Positions 16,862 through 23,135 of a stretch of DNA of 64,000 nt are shown here, one piece after another; the first letter of the stretch is position 1, and each line of letters begins with the position of its first letter. This DNA comes from Escherichia coli (GTDB taxonomy: Bacteria; Pseudomonadota; Gammaproteobacteria; Enterobacterales; Enterobacteriaceae): assembly GCF_030384885.1 (NCBI RefSeq), contig NZ_CP128613.1; one strand, given 5' to 3'. Below the pieces are notes generated by a model. That model did not search any database, was not told the DNA's origin, and worked only from the letters and a program-made list of their open reading frames with translations. Position numbers and translations under genes: made by a program.

Positions 16862-17476
<615 letters not shown>

Positions 17477-17496: not shown

Positions 17497-17724
17497 ATGC
17501 CAACTCAAGAAGCGAAAGCTCATCACGTCGGTGAATGGGCATCTCTGCGCAATACGTCGCCGGAAATAGCCGAGGCCATTTTCGAAGTCGCCGGGTACGA
17601 CGAAAAAATGGCGGAAAAGATTTGGGAAGAAGGTAGCGATGAAGTGTTAGTCAAAGCCTTTGCTAAGACCGATAAAGATTCGCTTTTTTGGGGCGAACAG
17701 ACCATCGAACGTAAAAACGTTTAA
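17497..17724 (+). CDS. yccJ: Small protein YccJ
   Basis: 75 aa ORF 20 bp downstream of wrbA. Confidence 0.9.
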
Positions 17725-17732
17725 TCCTGAAC

Positions 17733-17759
17733 CTCCCCCGTAGTGAACGGGGGAGTTTT
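17733..17759. terminator. Intrinsic terminator hairpin after yccJ
   Basis: ctcccccg-tagtgaa-cgggggag followed by TTTTC. Confidence 0.7.
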
Positions 17760-18259
17760 CGATTATTCATTGACCAACGTCTCATGTCCTGTTATTACTG
17801 TGAGATATTCAATCACGTTATCAAATAAAAAAATCGATATCATTGCGGTAAGCTTGTTATTGATTATAAATATGGGTAATAAGCGATATCCAGCATGAAT
17901 TTGATTGTACAGGGTATTTCCTATATAGCCATTGGTTAAATCTTGAAGATAAGATACCTCCGGCTGAAAAATCCATCCCGGCAATGAAGGATGTGATATT
18001 TTCGTAATTCTCTTGCAGAATAAACAACCCTGGATACGCTCTGAATACAAGGAAATTTTCCAATAAATTATTTATTCATCAATACTCCCCGGCGAGGATC
18101 ATCAAAATATCTCATTATCTTTTAAAACTGCCCAGCCCGTTATAACGGACGTTATCTGGCGCACGCTGAAGTGGGCATGATACTCACTTTCATTAAAATG
18201 CTCGACATGATTTGCTAATCGCTTAGCTAGATAATTGACGTTCAGTCTGTGCCAAATTT

Positions 18260-18619
18260 TTAGCGAAAAATAGCAAATTTAAGCCGGGAATTTATCAAAG
18301 CATCCTCATTTACTTCACCATGAACAATAAAGTCACGCATAAACTGCAGGTGTTTAATTAATAAAATCCATTCACTTTCAGTAAGATAGTTTTTCCCACG
18401 CAGATTATAATACAGAGATTTGATTAATGGGATCTTCTGCTTATGGCGCTTTGACCGCGCTGAGCACAATATTTGTTCTATCAGGCCAAGCGTCCCTTTC
18501 TGACGCAACCAGCACCGGAGTTCAGACTGCGCGCTAATGCCGCGAGCCACCGACAAATGTATTTGGGTAAGCAATGCGTATAAACCTAATAAAAACGCGT
18601 CGTGATAATACCGCTTCAT
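18260..18619 (-). CDS. Hypothetical basic protein, 119 aa, second gene of the inserted cassette
   Basis: ORF with GAGGTG RBS a few nt before the ATG, 12 bp after the upstream ORF stop; K+R-rich (net charge about +10); no family recognised. Confidence 0.55.
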   Translation of the reverse strand: MKRYYHDAFLLGLYALLTQIHLSVARGISAQSELRCWLRQKGTLGLIEQILCSARSKRHKQKIPLIKSLYYNLRGKNYLTESEWILLIKHLQFMRDFIVHGEVNEDALINSRLKFAIFR

Positions 18620-18631
18620 TACCCACCTCTG

Positions 18632-18970
18632 TTATCGTAATTTTTTAAACAAATAATCATATAAAATTTCGGCAATGAATTCTGCATGTTCACGTCGCAC
18701 AATGACATTCATAACGTAATATTGCGCAGCAATTTCATTGATAAAATGTTCAGGCAGTATGAATACGCGTGCATAAGCCGAGTATATTTCCAGTATTTCA
18801 TTTGAGATGTTTTCAAGATCAACGCAATAATTTGTCACATCATAAAAAAGATTAGCGTATTTTTTATTAATTATGCTAAGGCATATAAATGGGGCATTTA
18901 ATTTTTCACACAATTGCCAGTGCGTTCTTTCATTTTCTCCCTTCCATGTATACTTCATTTTGTCAGCCAT
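18632..18970 (-). CDS. Hypothetical protein, first gene of the inserted cassette (112 aa from ATG 18970; 108 aa from ATG 18958; 122 aa from GTG 19000)
   Basis: ORF in roughly 30-35% GC DNA; start codon ambiguous; no family recognised. Confidence 0.5.
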   Translation of the reverse strand: MADKMKYTWKGENERTHWQLCEKLNAPFICLSIINKKYANLFYDVTNYCVDLENISNEILEIYSAYARVFILPEHFINEIAAQYYVMNVIVRREHAEFIAEILYDYLFKKLR

Positions 18971-19105
18971 CCTTTGATTTACGCGTCTGAAGTTTACCAC
19001 TGTGTCTGGGGTAAACCATGCGTTCTATGGTAAAAATTATACGAGATGTGGCGCTGCGTAATATTCTGCTCCCTCAATATATTTCTGGTGAATATGTTCC
19101 AGGTT

Positions 19106-19138
19106 AATTGGGAAGATCTGCATGTGATCTTCCCAATT
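19106..19138. repeat. Perfect 13 bp inverted repeat with 7 nt loop
   Basis: aattgggaagatc-tgcatgt-gatcttcccaatt, between agp and the cassette. Confidence 0.6.
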
Positions 19139-19167
19139 TTATGACTACAAAATGTCAATAGCCGGGT

Positions 19168-20409
19168 TTATTTCACCGCTTCATTCAACACGCTATCAAA
19201 CTTATCCATTGGGCAGAAACCATCAGCGTCTATCGGGCAGCCGGTTAATTCCAGCGTCACGCGCTGAGCCGGAGCCTGCAACGTTAACGCATCAGCATTA
19301 CGCAACTGTTCCGCACTCTGGTACACATATTCAATTTTCATCAAATCGCGATTAGCTTTGCTGTTATGCCAACGCTGGAAAACGATTTTGCCGCCAATCG
19401 GCGTGCGTTCGTTCTGGTCATGCAACTGATACGGTTTGAAATCCAGTGCCGTTAACAGAGAGGCAATGTTTGAGTCGTGCCCCACCAGCACCGTGATTTT
19501 CGGTGCACTGGCGCGATCTGTCACCAGCGCTTTGTCGATATAACTGACCAGTGGTTTCGCAACATTGCGCGCCACTTCCGGTGAGGTAAACAGGCTATCC
19601 TGGTAACCGTTTTTCAGCTTCGACAACACTTTCCACTGTTGGTCAGATTTGATTTCTCCCCACGCCACCTGATCCATCGGGAAACCTTCGTAGTATTGCA
19701 AAGTAAACGCATCTACCAGCGAGTTGCCGACTTTCAGCGGCCCGGAAACGCCCGGTTCTTGTTGATACTTCGCGCTAAAGGTGTTTTTGCCATCTACAAG
19801 CGAACACTGTTGCTTCTCTTTACAGGCAGGAGAATCTTTATAGTTAACGATTTTTTCCAGTAGCTTGTAGCTGTCGGTAAGCTGGAGTTTGCCGAGCTCT
19901 TTCTCCATTGCCGCCACCGCCTGTTCACTGAATGCGGCGGAATCATCGGTGATCACCGGGTTAAAGGTTGGGTCCATGGTGCCCATTTTTTCCTGGTGGT
20001 GGACTGGAATGTCACACCCAGGGAATGCGCCAGTAATAAAGAACTGCGCGGTTGCGACGGTACGTTGCAGGCTGTTGGCATAGGCATAAACGGTGTCCGG
20101 CGGCGGGCATTCCCCCGAATTCACCATCCCCTGCTCTGCCAGCCACTCACGCATATAGTGGCCCATATACACTTCCAGCACACCGCCTTTGGTGGTGAGC
20201 TGCCCACCGGGGACGTCCCATTCTGGCCATTTATTCGGTGTGGATTGTTCCAGCACACTGCCATTGTTCGCCAGCGGCGCACGTAAGTTATGGCGGCTCA
20301 TTATGAGCACTTGCTGCAACTGATAGCCTTCCGGTACGGTTTGTGCCTGAGCATTTGAAGCGAGTAAAACTATCCCTGCCACAGCTGCGGCGATTAGCGT
20401 TTTGTTCAT
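19168..20409 (-). CDS. agp: Periplasmic glucose-1-phosphatase Agp
   Basis: 413 aa from [10 protein letters not shown]; histidine acid phosphatase motif RHNLRAP. Confidence 0.95.
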
Positions 20410-20703
20410 TCCTGGCACCTCTTTTGTTATCAATCACCAAAGAGTGTGACAGAAATATGACATTTTTCCGGGAACAGGTTCGCAAAATGGCTTGTTGAGT
20501 GCCTGTTTTTCTATATTTGTCATTAAAAAAAGGCAAGATTTGACGCAACCTATGCATGATTAGCCCCTGCCTCGTGTACGCCGTTGATGATTTCACCATG
20601 GGCTAGACAGAATATCACCGACGTTATCGATACAGGGGCAATATTTACTAGTAAAAAGAGAATGTGAGACTAATAAAAACTATTTTAGCACATGTCTTTA
20701 TCA

Positions 20704-21957
20704 TTAGATGGCATAACGATTTAAATAGTCCAGTTGCGCTTTCATTTCCTTATGGTTTAACTGGTATGACTGAGCAAAAAGTTCAGTAGGGAGGTAAACG
20801 TCATAATGATTGCCAGTATTTATTAAATAACCATACTCAAGATCTTCATCCGTTGAAAAGGATTCACTTCCCAAGGAGATTGATCCCACATTACAGGCAA
20901 CAATAAACAATGAACAAATGCTATCTGAAAGCACAGCAAGGAAATTCTTCACCGCTTTAACCTTTTCCGGAGAGTCGGTATTTAAAACAAGCGAACCCTT
21001 GTTATCATTAAATATAAACTCGGGTAAATGCAATATGCATCTTTCGTCATTCAAGCAACTACCAATGAATTCTTTTTTAAACTTAATAAAATTCGACGCT
21101 AAAGAATTACCCATATCCTGAATTTGGTTGTCAGAATGCAGATCAACGCCAAATAATGTCTTAATATCTTCCCTGAGATTAAAGAATGCTGCATCAACAA
21201 AAGACTCAATCACTTGTTTATCAACAATTTTAATAAATTCGTCGTATACTTCTTTTTGCGTCTTTTGACTGCCAAGCGCCCATGAATAATCAACGTGTTT
21301 TATAACCAGGATGGCTCTTAACAGACAATATCCATCGCCATCTACAGGCGCGTATTTTAATTTATGTGCTTGATTAACTTCACTCTGAATAAAAGATATA
21401 CCAGACAAATCAATACCAGTAGCTGAATCATATATTCCCGGCGCATTTATCCGTTTTGGCTGGACATTCGTAATTTCATCATCATCAAAGCAATACTCAG
21501 AAAAAACATCATTACACTCATTTAAGATATCAACATATGCTATAAATTTATACCAACAGCTACTTTTAAAGCCTGCAATAGCCTGTGAAAACATACCCGG
21601 CAAGGATATATTAACAAGCTCTCTTTCTTGAAAATATTGTATAGTATAGGTAATGCCTCCTGAATCCCCTGAATAAGTGTTTGTATCATGAGTACGTAAT
21701 GTTTTCATAAATGAAGATAAATCATTATCATTTTGCATTTCCTCTAATTCTGTTTCTAGTGATTCACACACCAGGCATGAAATATTTTCTTCTTTCCGCA
21801 TGATTTCATTGTACAACCGCATAAAACACTCTAGTTTTTGTTCAAAAAGCGTGATTGAACATTTTTGATTTTCTTCGCGCCTGGTTTTTATATCGGCCCA
21901 GGCTGTTTTCAAATAATTATTAGCACTGCAACTTACTCCATGTATATTACTACCCAT
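20704..21957 (-). CDS. yccE: Uncharacterized protein YccE
   Basis: 417 aa ORF in AT-rich DNA; recalled as YccE. Confidence 0.8.
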   Translation of the reverse strand: MGSNIHGVSCSANNYLKTAWADIKTRREENQKCSITLFEQKLECFMRLYNEIMRKEENISCLVCESLETELEEMQNDNDLSSFMKTLRTHDTNTYSGDSGGITYTIQYFQERELVNISLPGMFSQAIAGFKSSCWYKFIAYVDILNECNDVFSEYCFDDDEITNVQPKRINAPGIYDSATGIDLSGISFIQSEVNQAHKLKYAPVDGDGYCLLRAILVIKHVDYSWALGSQKTQKEVYDEFIKIVDKQVIESFVDAAFFNLREDIKTLFGVDLHSDNQIQDMGNSLASNFIKFKKEFIGSCLNDERCILHLPEFIFNDNKGSLVLNTDSPEKVKAVKNFLAVLSDSICSLFIVACNVGSISLGSESFSTDEDLEYGYLINTGNHYDVYLPTELFAQSYQLNHKEMKAQLDYLNRYAI

Positions 21958-22214
21958 ATATAGCGCCTATAAAATTTAATAAATAATGACGTCCTAGTTA
22001 AGCTTAAAGTGCCTGATTTAACTATCAAAAATCGCTCACCCTTTTACCTGTTTAAACTATGCTCAGCAATCCATCTTGACGCCACCTCCTCTCCACGATG
22101 ATTTCAATAACATATTCTGTGTTGGCATATGAAATTTTGAGGATTACCCTACACTTATAGGAGTTACCTTACAGGGGTTCCTTCAATTTGTGTTGATTTA
22201 CGCGAGATAACGCT

Positions 22215-23135
22215 ATGGAACTAAAGGATTATTACGCCATCATGGGCGTGAAACCGACGGACGATCTCAAGACAATCAAGACCGCCTATCGTCGACTGGC
22301 CCGCAAATACCATCCTGATGTCAGCAAAGAACCGGATGCCGAAGCCCGCTTCAAAGAGGTCGCTGAAGCCTGGGAAGTGTTGAGTGATGAACAACGTCGC
22401 GCTGAGTATGATCAGATGTGGCAACATCGCAACGATCCGCAATTTAACCGTCAATTCCATCATGGCGACGGTCAGAGTTTTAACGCCGAAGATTTTGACG
22501 ATATCTTCTCGTCAATTTTCGGTCAGCATGCCCGCCAGAGCCGTCAACGCCCCGCCACCCGCGGCCACGATATTGAAATCGAAGTGGCGGTATTCCTGGA
22601 AGAAACGCTTACTGAGCACAAGCGTACCATCAGCTATAACCTGCCGGTTTATAACGCCTTTGGCATGATCGAACAGGAAATCCCGAAAACGCTGAATGTG
22701 AAGATCCCGGCGGGCGTCGGCAATGGTCAACGCATCCGCCTGAAAGGCCAGGGAACGCCGGGCGAAAATGGCGGCCCAAATGGCGATTTGTGGCTGGTGA
22801 TTCATATTGCGCCGCATCCATTGTTTGATATTGTCGGCCAGGATCTGGAAATAGTGGTGCCGGTTAGCCCGTGGGAAGCGGCGCTGGGTGCTAAAGTCAC
22901 CGTTCCAACACTGAAAGAAAGCATTTTGCTAACTATCCCGCCGGGCAGTCAGGCCGGGCAACGATTACGCGTTAAAGGCAAAGGCCTGGTGAGCAAAAAA
23001 CAGACCGGCGATCTGTATGCGGTACTGAAAATCGTGATGCCGCCGAAACCGGATGAAAATACGGCCGCGCTGTGGCAGCAACTGGCAGACGCCCAGTCGT
23101 CTTTTGATCCACGTAAAGATTGGGGGAAAGCATGA
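22215..23135 (+). CDS. cbpA: Curved-DNA-binding DnaJ-like protein CbpA
   Basis: 306 aa; J-domain with HPD motif (YHPDVSK). Confidence 0.95.

What the first reader, a model, noticed from the sequence alone, without database searches (positions are those of the whole stretch)
19001..19167. Candidate control region of the cassette: perfect 13 bp inverted repeat and an isolated TATAAT
Between the agp stop and the cassette there is a perfect palindrome aattgggaagatc-N7-gatcttcccaatt (19106-19138). It is AT-rich and, in the direction of agp transcription, is not followed by a T-run, so it does not look like a standard intrinsic terminator; it could be a protein-binding operator (autoregulation is typical of addiction modules). 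On the minus strand a perfect TATAAT lies at 19036-19041 about 40-80 nt upstream of the candidate starts, with no convincing -35. Expression may depend on an extended or alternative promoter, or on read-through from agp.
Basis: seen in the sequence. Interest (0 to 1): 0.4.

Follow-up and report, generated by a model that had tools for sequence, protein, structure and literature searches.

The report
Terminator-like hairpin after agp, not an operator
The perfect 13-bp palindrome and the TATAAT are really there, but the palindrome looks like an ordinary terminator-type hairpin at the junction between agp and a rare, decaying three-gene insert, not a repressor-binding site of a toxin-antitoxin module.

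Summary
A perfect 13-bp inverted repeat (19106-19118 / 19126-19138, 7-nt loop) and a minus-strand TATAAT (19041-19036) with no -35 are present. The palindrome is far beyond chance.

The context changes the reading. The window is E. coli wrbA-yccJ / agp. A 1.4-kb AT-rich insert (17761-19167) lies exactly between the agp stop codon and the hairpin that RNA-seq in K-12 showed to be the terminator shared by agp and wrbA-yccJ. Only 5 of 5,426 complete E. coli genomes carry the insert. It holds three same-strand genes, A, B and C. Only A is intact here.

Distant homologues of B sit directly after Rhs toxin genes or beside T6SS genes, so B looks like an orphan immunity gene, not an addiction module.

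The palindrome lies 29 nt after the agp stop and about 77-109 bp upstream of the putative transcription start. It is unique in all collections searched. Relatives keep a hairpin but break the DNA dyad symmetry. Its T-run is on the opposite strand, the same layout as the K-12 shared terminator.

Best reading: a leaky or bidirectional terminator-type hairpin, followed by a weak -35-less promoter, with read-through from agp. The operator idea is not supported. The finding is ordinary and of low interest.

The parts
19106..19138 (.). Perfect 13-bp inverted repeat with a 7-nt loop. It forms a stable hairpin in transcripts of either strand. It starts 29 nt downstream of the agp stop and contains two GATC sites 11 bp apart.
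   Evidence: A hairpin core is retained in all 5-6 haplotypes from E. coli, E. albertii and a contig labelled E. fergusonii.
19137..19142 (+). TTTTAT run directly after (and partly within) the 3' arm on the + strand. This is the A-tract AUAAAA in front of the hairpin in the agp sense. It gives the hairpin canonical terminator polarity only for + strand transcription.
   Evidence: Sequence. The CATAAAA block is invariant in all haplotypes. The K-12 shared terminator has the same polarity.
19036..19041 (-). Perfect -10 hexamer TATAAT without a -35 or a TGn extension. It is a candidate weak promoter for gene A.
   Evidence: Kept in 5 of 6 haplotypes; E. albertii has TATGAT. Not called by the consensus scan.
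18959..19035 (-). Putative 5' leader of gene A. It holds AAGGA at 18974-18970 and an invariant non-coding block at 18987-19009. Part of that block (18988-18997) can pair with the start-codon region 18948-18957.
   Evidence: The fold is not better than shuffles (z +0.56), so a structural role is unproven.
18632..18958 (-). Gene A, 108 aa. It is the only intact cassette gene in this window. It is an Escherichia-only ORFan of unknown function.
   Evidence: PGAP CDS WP_000878101. Homologues only in Escherichia. dN/dS is about 0.2. No family hit. The AF2 model is poor, pLDDT 55.
18102..18619 (-). Gene B. It is a pseudogene here: a 1-nt deletion between 18280 and 18281 truncates the 172-aa protein to 119 aa. 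The family occupies the immunity-gene position after Rhs toxins.
17767..18079 (-). Gene C remnant. It is 100-104 aa when intact. Here a 2-bp deletion at 18070/18071 gives M-N-K-stop.
   Evidence: Intact in L019 and L007.
17733..17755 (.). Ancestral yccJ/agp hairpin CTCCCCCG-N5-CGGGGGAG followed by TTTT on the + strand. It is the counterpart of K-12 terminator T-1066062, shared by agp and wrbA-yccJ. It now lies at the far end of the cassette.
17761..19167 (.). The 1,407-bp AT-rich insert, relative to K-12-type genomes. It is bounded by the imperfect direct repeat TGAA(A)TAA, formed by the stop-codon regions of agp and of C.

Best explanation
The palindrome is a terminator-class nucleic-acid hairpin, not a protein operator. 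It marks the boundary between agp and a rare three-gene insert.

In K-12-type genomes agp ends 7 nt before a single hairpin that terminates both agp and the converging wrbA-yccJ operon. In this strain 1.4 kb carrying genes A, B and C (same strand as agp) lies between the agp stop and that hairpin. The palindrome is now the first stable hairpin after agp, 29 nt from the stop.

Its layout matches the displaced terminator: an A-tract on the agp side, with a T-run only in the opposite sense. Inferred, not shown: it stops or stabilises part of the agp transcripts and lets the rest read through into the cassette. It would also efficiently stop antisense transcripts that arise in the AT-rich insert before they enter agp.

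Gene A then gets its expression from that read-through plus a weak -35-less promoter at the TATAAT (19041-19036). The whole unit ends at the old shared terminator (17733-17755).

The cassette itself is most likely a set of orphan immunity-type genes that is decaying in this strain. No autoregulating repressor is expected.
For: Shown:
- The palindrome is non-random and strongly folding in both senses.
- It lies 29 nt after the agp stop, inside an insert that separates agp from its K-12 terminator.
- That K-12 hairpin was shown by RNA-seq to be used by both agp and wrbA-yccJ (PMC4161252). It has a T-run only on the yccJ side. So the missing T-run in the agp sense does not exclude termination of agp.
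- The palindrome has comparable stability (-18.9/-20.6 against -20.4/-19.3 kcal/mol) and the same polarity of its T-run.
- Every relative keeps a hairpin. E. albertii replaces the lower stem by a shifted 6-bp stem with a bulge through three substitutions, at unchanged energy (-18.4). This fits selection on pairing rather than on a recognised sequence.
- The order stop codon, hairpin, 64 nt, -10, 77-nt leader, gene is the usual terminator-then-promoter order.
- The palindrome is not a repeated element and matches no RNA family.
- A Y. pestis locus with the same 9-bp core is a textbook terminator.
- The cassette shows no sign of a TA system or a DNA-binding protein, and B is immunity-like.
Against: - There is no transcript data for any cassette-bearing strain.
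- In the agp sense the tail AACCUGGA has one U, so classical intrinsic termination should be inefficient.
- The consensus scan did not call the hairpin a terminator on either strand. It passes on the + strand only if the two outer A-T pairs are counted as tail.
- There is no covariation: 0 double changes, and the structure is no better than column shuffles.
- The arms are not more conserved than neutral sites: 5 of 26 arm columns vary, against 8 of 31 four-fold sites of gene A.
- The hairpin is weakened in two lineages: L007 to -13.7, the fergusonii-type to -11.1 in the agp sense.
- The promoter rests on one hexamer in DNA that is rich in such hexamers.
Confidence: 0.5

Rival explanations
1. 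Relic without present function. The hairpin was a terminator or other structure in an earlier context of the cassette and now drifts neutrally. The TATAAT is one of many chance -10-like hexamers in AT-rich DNA.
For: - Variation in the arms (19%) and in the whole spacer (21%) is about that of four-fold sites in gene A (26%).
- All changes in the arms weaken or merely tolerate pairing, and none is a classical compensatory pair.
- The hairpin drops to -11 to -14 kcal/mol in two lineages.
- B and C are pseudogenes here, and B is independently frameshifted in strain N3.
- Four of the window's seven TATAAT hexamers lie in the insert.
Against: - A perfect 13-bp palindrome is very unlikely to survive or arise by drift.
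- The E. albertii version regains full stability in a new register.
- A, B and C evolve with dN/dS of about 0.2 where intact, so the unit has been maintained.
Confidence: 0.25
2. First reader's idea. The palindrome is an operator bound by a cassette protein that autoregulates an addiction (toxin-antitoxin) module.
For: - The dyad is perfect, and the palindrome lies in the only non-coding stretch upstream of the first cassette gene.
- A and C have unknown folds, so a DNA-binding function cannot be excluded. The AF2 models are unusable, pLDDT 55 and 52.
Against: - The palindrome centre is about 93 bp upstream of the start implied by the TATAAT and does not overlap the promoter core.
- 13-bp arms with a 7-bp spacer are atypical for HTH or RHH operators.
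- Dyad symmetry is broken asymmetrically in L007, E. albertii and the fergusonii-type.
- No TA or DNA-binding family hit for any protein.
- The B family sits after Rhs toxins as immunity genes do. The RxxxxH motif in B is not conserved, so it is not a HEPN domain.
- In one metagenome contig an IS66 end lies 13 nt from the A start, and no spacer sequence lies between them.
Confidence: 0.07
3. The hairpin plus TTTTAT is the intrinsic terminator of a cis-antisense RNA. This RNA would start on the + strand inside gene A, cover the A start codon and leader, and control A translation or stability.
For: - Only the + sense has canonical terminator form.
- + strand promoter-like sites lie inside gene A: TTGAGA-18-AATAAT at 18802-18831, plus others in the top 0.1%.
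- In the fergusonii-type the + sense hairpin is the better preserved, -17.9 against -11.1.
Against: - The best + strand -10 loses its final T in the N3 lineage (AATAAC).
- The other candidates lack the -11 A or lie in coding sequence, where conservation is uninformative.
- Promoter-like sites here are no more frequent than in shuffles.
- No Rfam match.
Confidence: 0.08
4. The palindrome is a DNA-level site: a subterminal hairpin of a mobile element, a recombination site used to insert the cassette, or a pair of Dam/SeqA GATC sites acting as an epigenetic switch.
For: - It lies 29 bp from the right end of the insert.
- The insert is flanked by the imperfect direct repeat TGAA(A)TAA.
- The same spacer holds other insertions in other strains: a REP-like element in L003 and an IS in E. 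albertii.
- Two GATC sites lie 11 bp apart.
Against: - No matching hairpin at the left end, and no transposase or integrase in the insert.
- The cassette was found only at agp-yccJ. It was never found on plasmids or in phage or viral contigs.
- The palindrome occurs nowhere else in 5,426 E. coli genomes. The 28 core matches in 100,044 species genomes are unrelated.
- One GATC is lost in L007 and the other in the fergusonii-type.
Confidence: 0.05

Closest known systems
K-12 terminator T-1066062, the single hairpin shared by the converging agp and wrbA-yccJ operons (Conway et al. 2014, mBio, PMC4161252)
   Same: It is the first hairpin downstream of the agp stop. Its stability is similar, about -19 to -20 kcal/mol. 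It has an A-tract on the agp side and a T-run only on the opposite strand. It lies between converging or potentially converging transcription.
   Different: The sequence is unrelated: an AT-richer 13-bp stem with 5 G-C pairs, against a 9-bp stem with 7. It lies 29 nt from the stop rather than 7 nt. Here it faces a same-strand cassette rather than the end of a convergent gene. Its use as a terminator is untested.
Autoregulatory operators of type II toxin-antitoxin operons (for example relBE, mazEF, ccdAB; from general knowledge)
   Same: An inverted repeat upstream of a small multi-gene cassette.
   Different: Those operators overlap the -35/-10/start region, and an antitoxin with a recognisable RHH, HTH, AbrB or Phd domain binds them. 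Here the repeat is about 80-110 bp upstream of the putative start, no such domain is detectable, and dyad symmetry is not conserved.
Orphan Rhs/T6SS immunity genes and immunity-gene arrays (polymorphic toxin systems, Zhang et al. 2012, PMC3482391; Salmonella Rhs TreTu/TriTu, PMC9825190)
   Same: Gene B is 28-37% identical to proteins encoded with a 4-nt overlap directly after full-length Rhs toxins in Citrobacter/Salmonella and Enterobacter. Those Rhs C-terminal tips are ART-like (Tox-ART-HYD1, E 4e-4). Another B homologue lies in a small-gene array beside T6SS vipA/vipB in Proteus. The cassette consists of small, AT-rich, lineage-restricted, decay-prone genes.
   Different: No toxin gene, rhs fragment or T6SS gene is near the Escherichia cassette. 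A and C have no detectable relatives. B is unrelated in sequence to the solved TriTu immunity protein. Immunity function is inferred from gene position only.

Membership tests
Intrinsic (Rho-independent) terminator | Stable stem-loop shortly downstream of a stop codon | tested here: met
   13-bp stem, 7-nt loop, -18.9 / -20.6 kcal/mol, z about -4.5, 29 nt after the agp stop.
Intrinsic (Rho-independent) terminator | U-rich tract immediately 3' of the stem in the direction of transcription | tested here: inconclusive
   In the agp sense it is not met: the tail is AACCUGGA. In the + sense it is marginal: UUUUAU overlaps the last two A-U pairs. The consensus scan called neither. The proven K-12 agp terminator also lacks a U-tract in the agp sense.
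Intrinsic (Rho-independent) terminator | Transcript 3' ends mapped at the site | not testable with these tools
   No transcriptome of a cassette-bearing strain is available.
Conserved structured RNA element | Compensatory base-pair changes in relatives | tested here: not met
   0 pairs have changes on both sides and the score equals the shuffles. The only structure-preserving changes are one G-C to G.U and the re-registered lower stem of E. albertii.
TA-type autoregulatory operator | Inverted repeat overlapping the promoter core or transcription start | tested here: not met
   The repeat spans about -77 to -109 from the start implied by TATAAT at 19041-19036.
TA-type autoregulatory operator | Operon encodes a DNA-binding antitoxin and a toxin of a recognisable family | tested here: not met
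   No hit in Pfam, NCBIfam, PADLOC, PHROGs or the PDB for A, B or C. B is immunity-like by context. The folds of A and C are unresolved.
TA-type autoregulatory operator | Dyad symmetry of half-sites conserved in orthologous loci | tested here: not met
   Asymmetric substitutions or an indel occur in 3 of 5 haplotypes.
Sigma-70 promoter | -10 hexamer | tested here: met
   TATAAT at 19041-19036 on the minus strand. Kept in 5 of 6 haplotypes.
Sigma-70 promoter | -35 hexamer at 16-18 bp, or a TGn extended -10 | tested here: not met
   The best -35 is ATATTA (2 of 6). The upstream triplet is TCG.
Sigma-70 promoter | Mapped transcription start | not testable with these tools
   No dRNA-seq or 5' RACE data.
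Polymorphic-toxin (Rhs/T6SS) immunity gene, for gene B | Homologues encoded immediately 3' of the toxin gene | tested here: met
   P0010 and P0012 overlap by 4 nt the ends of full-length Rhs genes with homologous ART-like tips. The Proteus homologue lies next to vipA/vipB.
Polymorphic-toxin (Rhs/T6SS) immunity gene, for gene B | Neutralises the cognate toxin | not testable with these tools
   Needs co-expression or competition assays.
Repeated or mobile palindromic element (REP/BIME, IS200/IS605-type end) | Multiple copies per genome, or an associated transposase | tested here: not met
   Single copy in each of the 5 E. coli genomes that have it. There is no transposase in the insert. Core matches elsewhere are unrelated.

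The most novel reading that the evidence does not exclude
The hairpin and the -35-less promoter belong to a self-contained 'terminator, promoter, three genes' unit lodged between the stop codon of agp and its terminator. The unit is specific to Escherichia. It would be an orphan immunity island: gene B would protect against ART-type Rhs toxins of Citrobacter, Salmonella or Enterobacter, and A and C would be new immunity families. Expression would combine agp read-through with the unit's own weak promoter. The hairpin would act as a two-way insulator between host gene and island.
Probability: 0.25. Interest if true: 0.4.

Novelty: new member of a known kind. Interest (0 to 1): 0.15.

Why it matters
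The finding matters little by itself. A hairpin and a -10 hexamer between two transcription units are routine. The useful outcome is the corrected context.

The 'cassette' is a rare insert, present in 5 of 5,426 complete E. coli genomes, and it is specific to Escherichia. It sits inside the agp transcription unit and looks like orphan Rhs/T6SS immunity genes, not a toxin-antitoxin module.

If confirmed, it would be a small example of foreign immunity genes being wired into a host operon between stop codon and terminator. It would also add a second U-tract-less hairpin after agp to the terminator that RNA-seq showed agp uses in K-12.

Tried and rejected
- **Family searches.** A, B and C were searched against NCBIfam, PADLOC, PHROGs, Pfam and PDB sequences. 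Nothing was found beyond noise.
- **HEPN idea for B.** The RDFIVH motif is not conserved in the family, so this was rejected.
- **AlphaFold models of A and C.** pLDDT was 55 and 52. That is too poor for fold searches, so none were run.
- **Gene A or the spacer as a remnant of the Rhs toxin tip.** No meaningful similarity was found. The one weak tblastn hit lies antisense to conserved agp coding sequence.
- **Rfam.** Only one noise hit.
- **Palindrome as a repeated element.** It is single-copy in E. coli genomes. The 28 core matches in species genomes are unrelated. The Y. pestis match is an ordinary terminator.
- **Cassette in another context.** None was found in plasmids, viral contigs or metagenomes. 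The two gut contigs that matched have the same agp context.
- **Alternative minus-strand promoters.** A perfect TTGACA at 19158-19153 has no -10 at a usable spacing. TTGATA-18-TGAAAT lies inside conserved agp coding sequence, so it is also present in K-12.
- **Leader structure occluding the A start codon.** It appears in the consensus fold but has no variation to test and no energy excess.
- **Excess conservation of the spacer.** A first impression from pairwise dS values did not hold when variable columns were compared with four-fold sites.
- **First shuffle script.** It timed out and was rerun.

Full report
**What is there**

AATTGGGAAGATC (19106-19118) and GATCTTCCCAATT (19126-19138) form a perfect 13-bp inverted repeat around TGCATGT. 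ATTATA at 19036-19041 is TATAAT on the minus strand.

The palindrome is not a chance feature. Dinucleotide-preserving shuffles of the 64-kb window give 0.03 such repeats on average. Only 1 of 3,000 shuffles of the local AT-rich 1.4 kb contains one. As RNA it folds at -18.9 kcal/mol in the agp sense and -20.6 in the opposite sense, with z about -4.5 in both.

The TATAAT has no -35 (best ATATTA at 17 nt) and no TGn. The consensus scan called no promoter in 19001-19167. A position-weight scan of my own places it in the top 0.1% of the window on the strength of the -10 alone. However, four of the seven TATAAT hexamers of the whole window lie in this AT-rich stretch, so the hexamer is weak evidence by itself.

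**Genomic context**

The window is E. coli: wrbA (16880-17476, +), yccJ (17497-17724, +), agp (19168-20433, -).

In K-12-type genomes yccJ and agp are separated by 37 bp. That spacer consists of one hairpin, CTCCCCCG...CGGGGGAG, followed by TTTT on the yccJ side. Strand-specific RNA-seq of K-12 showed this terminator (T-1066062) to be shared by the converging agp and wrbA-yccJ operons (Conway et al. 2014, PMC4161252).

In the window that hairpin is still next to yccJ (17733-17755). A 1,407-bp insert (17761-19167) now separates it from the agp stop. The insert has GC of 33-41%, against about 51% for the window.

The insert is present in only 5 of 5,426 complete E. coli genomes. It was absent from the plasmid collection and from the viral-contig and metagenome scans, apart from two gut contigs with the same context. 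Wherever it was found it lies between agp and yccJ. This holds for diverged E. coli lineages, E. albertii and a contig labelled E. fergusonii. The whole finding, including the 29 nt between the agp stop and the palindrome, belongs to the insert.

**The cassette**

When intact, the insert carries three tightly spaced genes on the agp strand: A (108 aa), B (172-177 aa) and C (100-104 aa). The C stop codon lies about 10 nt from the old terminator. Where intact, the genes evolve with dN/dS of about 0.2, so they are real genes.

In this window only A (18632-18958) is intact.
- B has lost one base between 18280 and 18281 and is cut to 119 aa.
- C has a 2-bp deletion that gives M-N-K-stop.
- B is independently frameshifted in strain N3.
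- C is replaced by an IS in E. albertii.

None of the three proteins hits Pfam, NCBIfam, PADLOC, PHROGs or PDB sequences. A and C have homologues only in Escherichia. AlphaFold models of A and C were too poor to use.

An exhaustive HMMER search with intact B found relatives at 27-37% identity.
- In Citrobacter/Salmonella (P0010) and Enterobacter (P0012) these genes overlap by 4 nt the ends of full-length Rhs toxin genes (PAAR-like, DUF6531, RHS repeats, YD shell).
- The C-terminal tips of those Rhs proteins, after the DPxGL motif, are homologous to each other. They weakly match Tox-ART-HYD1 (E 4e-4) and TreTu_C.
- That is the position of Rhs immunity genes (PMC9825190; PMC3482391, listed).
- A Proteus homologue lies in an array of small genes beside T6SS vipA/vipB.

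An RxxxxH motif in B that suggested a HEPN RNase is not conserved in the family. The cassette therefore looks like orphan immunity-type genes, not a toxin-antitoxin pair. This removes the main reason to expect an autoregulatory operator.

**The palindrome in relatives**

Six haplotypes of the agp-A spacer are available.
- The window type and the N3 type keep the perfect stem. N3 differs only in the loop.
- L007 has C to T at the top of the 5' arm (G.U in the agp sense) and A to T near the base.
- The fergusonii-type has a 1-nt deletion in one arm and T to C in the other.
- E. albertii has three substitutions. They abolish two pairs next to the GGG/CCC core but create a shifted 6-bp lower stem with one bulge, at unchanged stability (-18.4 kcal/mol).

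The DNA dyad, and one or the other GATC site, is thus lost in three lineages, while a hairpin of -11 to -22 kcal/mol persists in each. This argues against a sequence-specific dimeric operator and fits a nucleic-acid hairpin.

The evidence for selection is nevertheless weak. No classical compensatory pair is seen. The arms vary about as much as four-fold sites of gene A, 5 of 26 against 8 of 31 columns.

The palindrome is single-copy in the E. coli genomes that have it and matches no Rfam family. Its 9-bp core with a 7-nt loop occurs in 28 unrelated genomes. One is a textbook Y. pestis terminator.

**How it most likely works**

The layout in the agp sense is: stop codon, 29 nt, hairpin, 64 nt, TATAAT, 77-nt leader with AAGGA, gene A. 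This is the ordinary terminator-then-promoter order.

The hairpin lacks a U-tract in the agp sense and has one (UUUUAU) in the opposite sense. The K-12 terminator that agp demonstrably uses has the same arrangement.

I therefore commit to the following, with confidence of about 0.5. The palindrome is a terminator-class hairpin. It partly stops or stabilises agp transcripts and blocks antisense transcription that arises in the AT-rich insert. Gene A is expressed from read-through plus a weak -35-less promoter. The unit ends at the old shared terminator.

Shown: the anatomy, its rarity, the conservation pattern and the K-12 precedent. Inferred: all transcriptional behaviour.

**Rivals**

- A drifting relic without present function (0.25).
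It is disfavoured by position (about -77 to -109), asymmetric divergence, the lack of any DNA-binding or TA signature, and the immunity-like nature of B.
- The terminator of a cis-antisense RNA over the A start (0.08). The best + strand promoter is not conserved in N3.
- A DNA-level recombination, mobile-element or Dam site (0.05). There is no second end, no transposase, no other copies, and the GATC sites are not conserved.

**Verdict**

The feature is a new instance of a known kind and of low interest. The somewhat more interesting by-product is the Escherichia-specific, decaying immunity-like cassette wedged between agp and its terminator.

Noticed in passing
L003 1246-1464 (E. coli STS63-2-E); same site as window 17725-19167: In this strain the yccJ-agp spacer holds a different 182-bp insertion made of REP-like sequences (gccggatgcggcg...cttatccggcctac). 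It is flanked by two copies of the CTCCCCCG...CGGGGGAG terminator hairpin. The spacer therefore has at least three states across E. coli: 37 bp, +182 bp REP, and +1.4 kb cassette.
   Followed up: partly
window 18280/18281 and 18070/18071; L004 (strain N3) about 2013-2020: Gene B is frameshifted in the window lineage by loss of a C. It is independently frameshifted in the N3 chromosome by loss of an A in an A-run. Gene C is knocked out by a 2-bp deletion in the window lineage. Other isolates of the same haplotypes keep intact copies (L006, L019). This is recurrent decay of B and C with A always intact.
   Followed up: partly
window 17762-17769 and 19168-19175: The insert is bounded by the imperfect direct repeat TGAATAAT / TGAAATAA (agp sense). 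These are the stop-codon regions of gene C and of agp. This is compatible with a target duplication or with deletion by microhomology. Which state is ancestral was not resolved.
   Followed up: no
window 18987-19009, with 18988-18997 pairing to 18948-18957: This is the least variable non-coding block of the spacer, with 23 nt invariant in all haplotypes. It contains GUAAACUUCA, which can pair 9 of 10 with UGAAGUAUAC at the start codon of gene A. That would occlude the start codon. There is no variation to test it, and the leader does not fold better than shuffles.
   Followed up: partly
L015 1-175 (metagenome contig): The end of an IS66-family transposase gene lies 51 bp upstream of gene A. 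The junction with cassette sequence is 13 nt from the ATG, so no spacer, hairpin or TATAAT lies between the IS and gene A there.
   Followed up: no
L010/L011 3928-5299 (E. albertii): An IS3-family element (HTH_Tnp_1 / rve) occupies the place of gene C between B and yccJ.
   Followed up: no
window 19115-19118 and 19126-19129: The palindrome carries two Dam sites (GATC) 11 bp apart, on the same helical face. The left-hand one is lost in the fergusonii-type haplotype and the right-hand one in L007.
   Followed up: partly
window 20450-22250: The gene on the other side of agp (20704-21957, minus strand, 417 aa, annotated as hypothetical) is also strongly AT-rich, with GC of 32-38%. agp is thus flanked on both sides by low-GC DNA.
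   Followed up: no
agp 19168-20409 compared with L019, L007 and L010: Between E. coli and E. albertii the synonymous divergence of cassette genes A and B (dS 0.24-0.42) is well below that of the adjacent agp (dS about 0.71). This hints that the cassette moved between species more recently than its flank.
   Followed up: no
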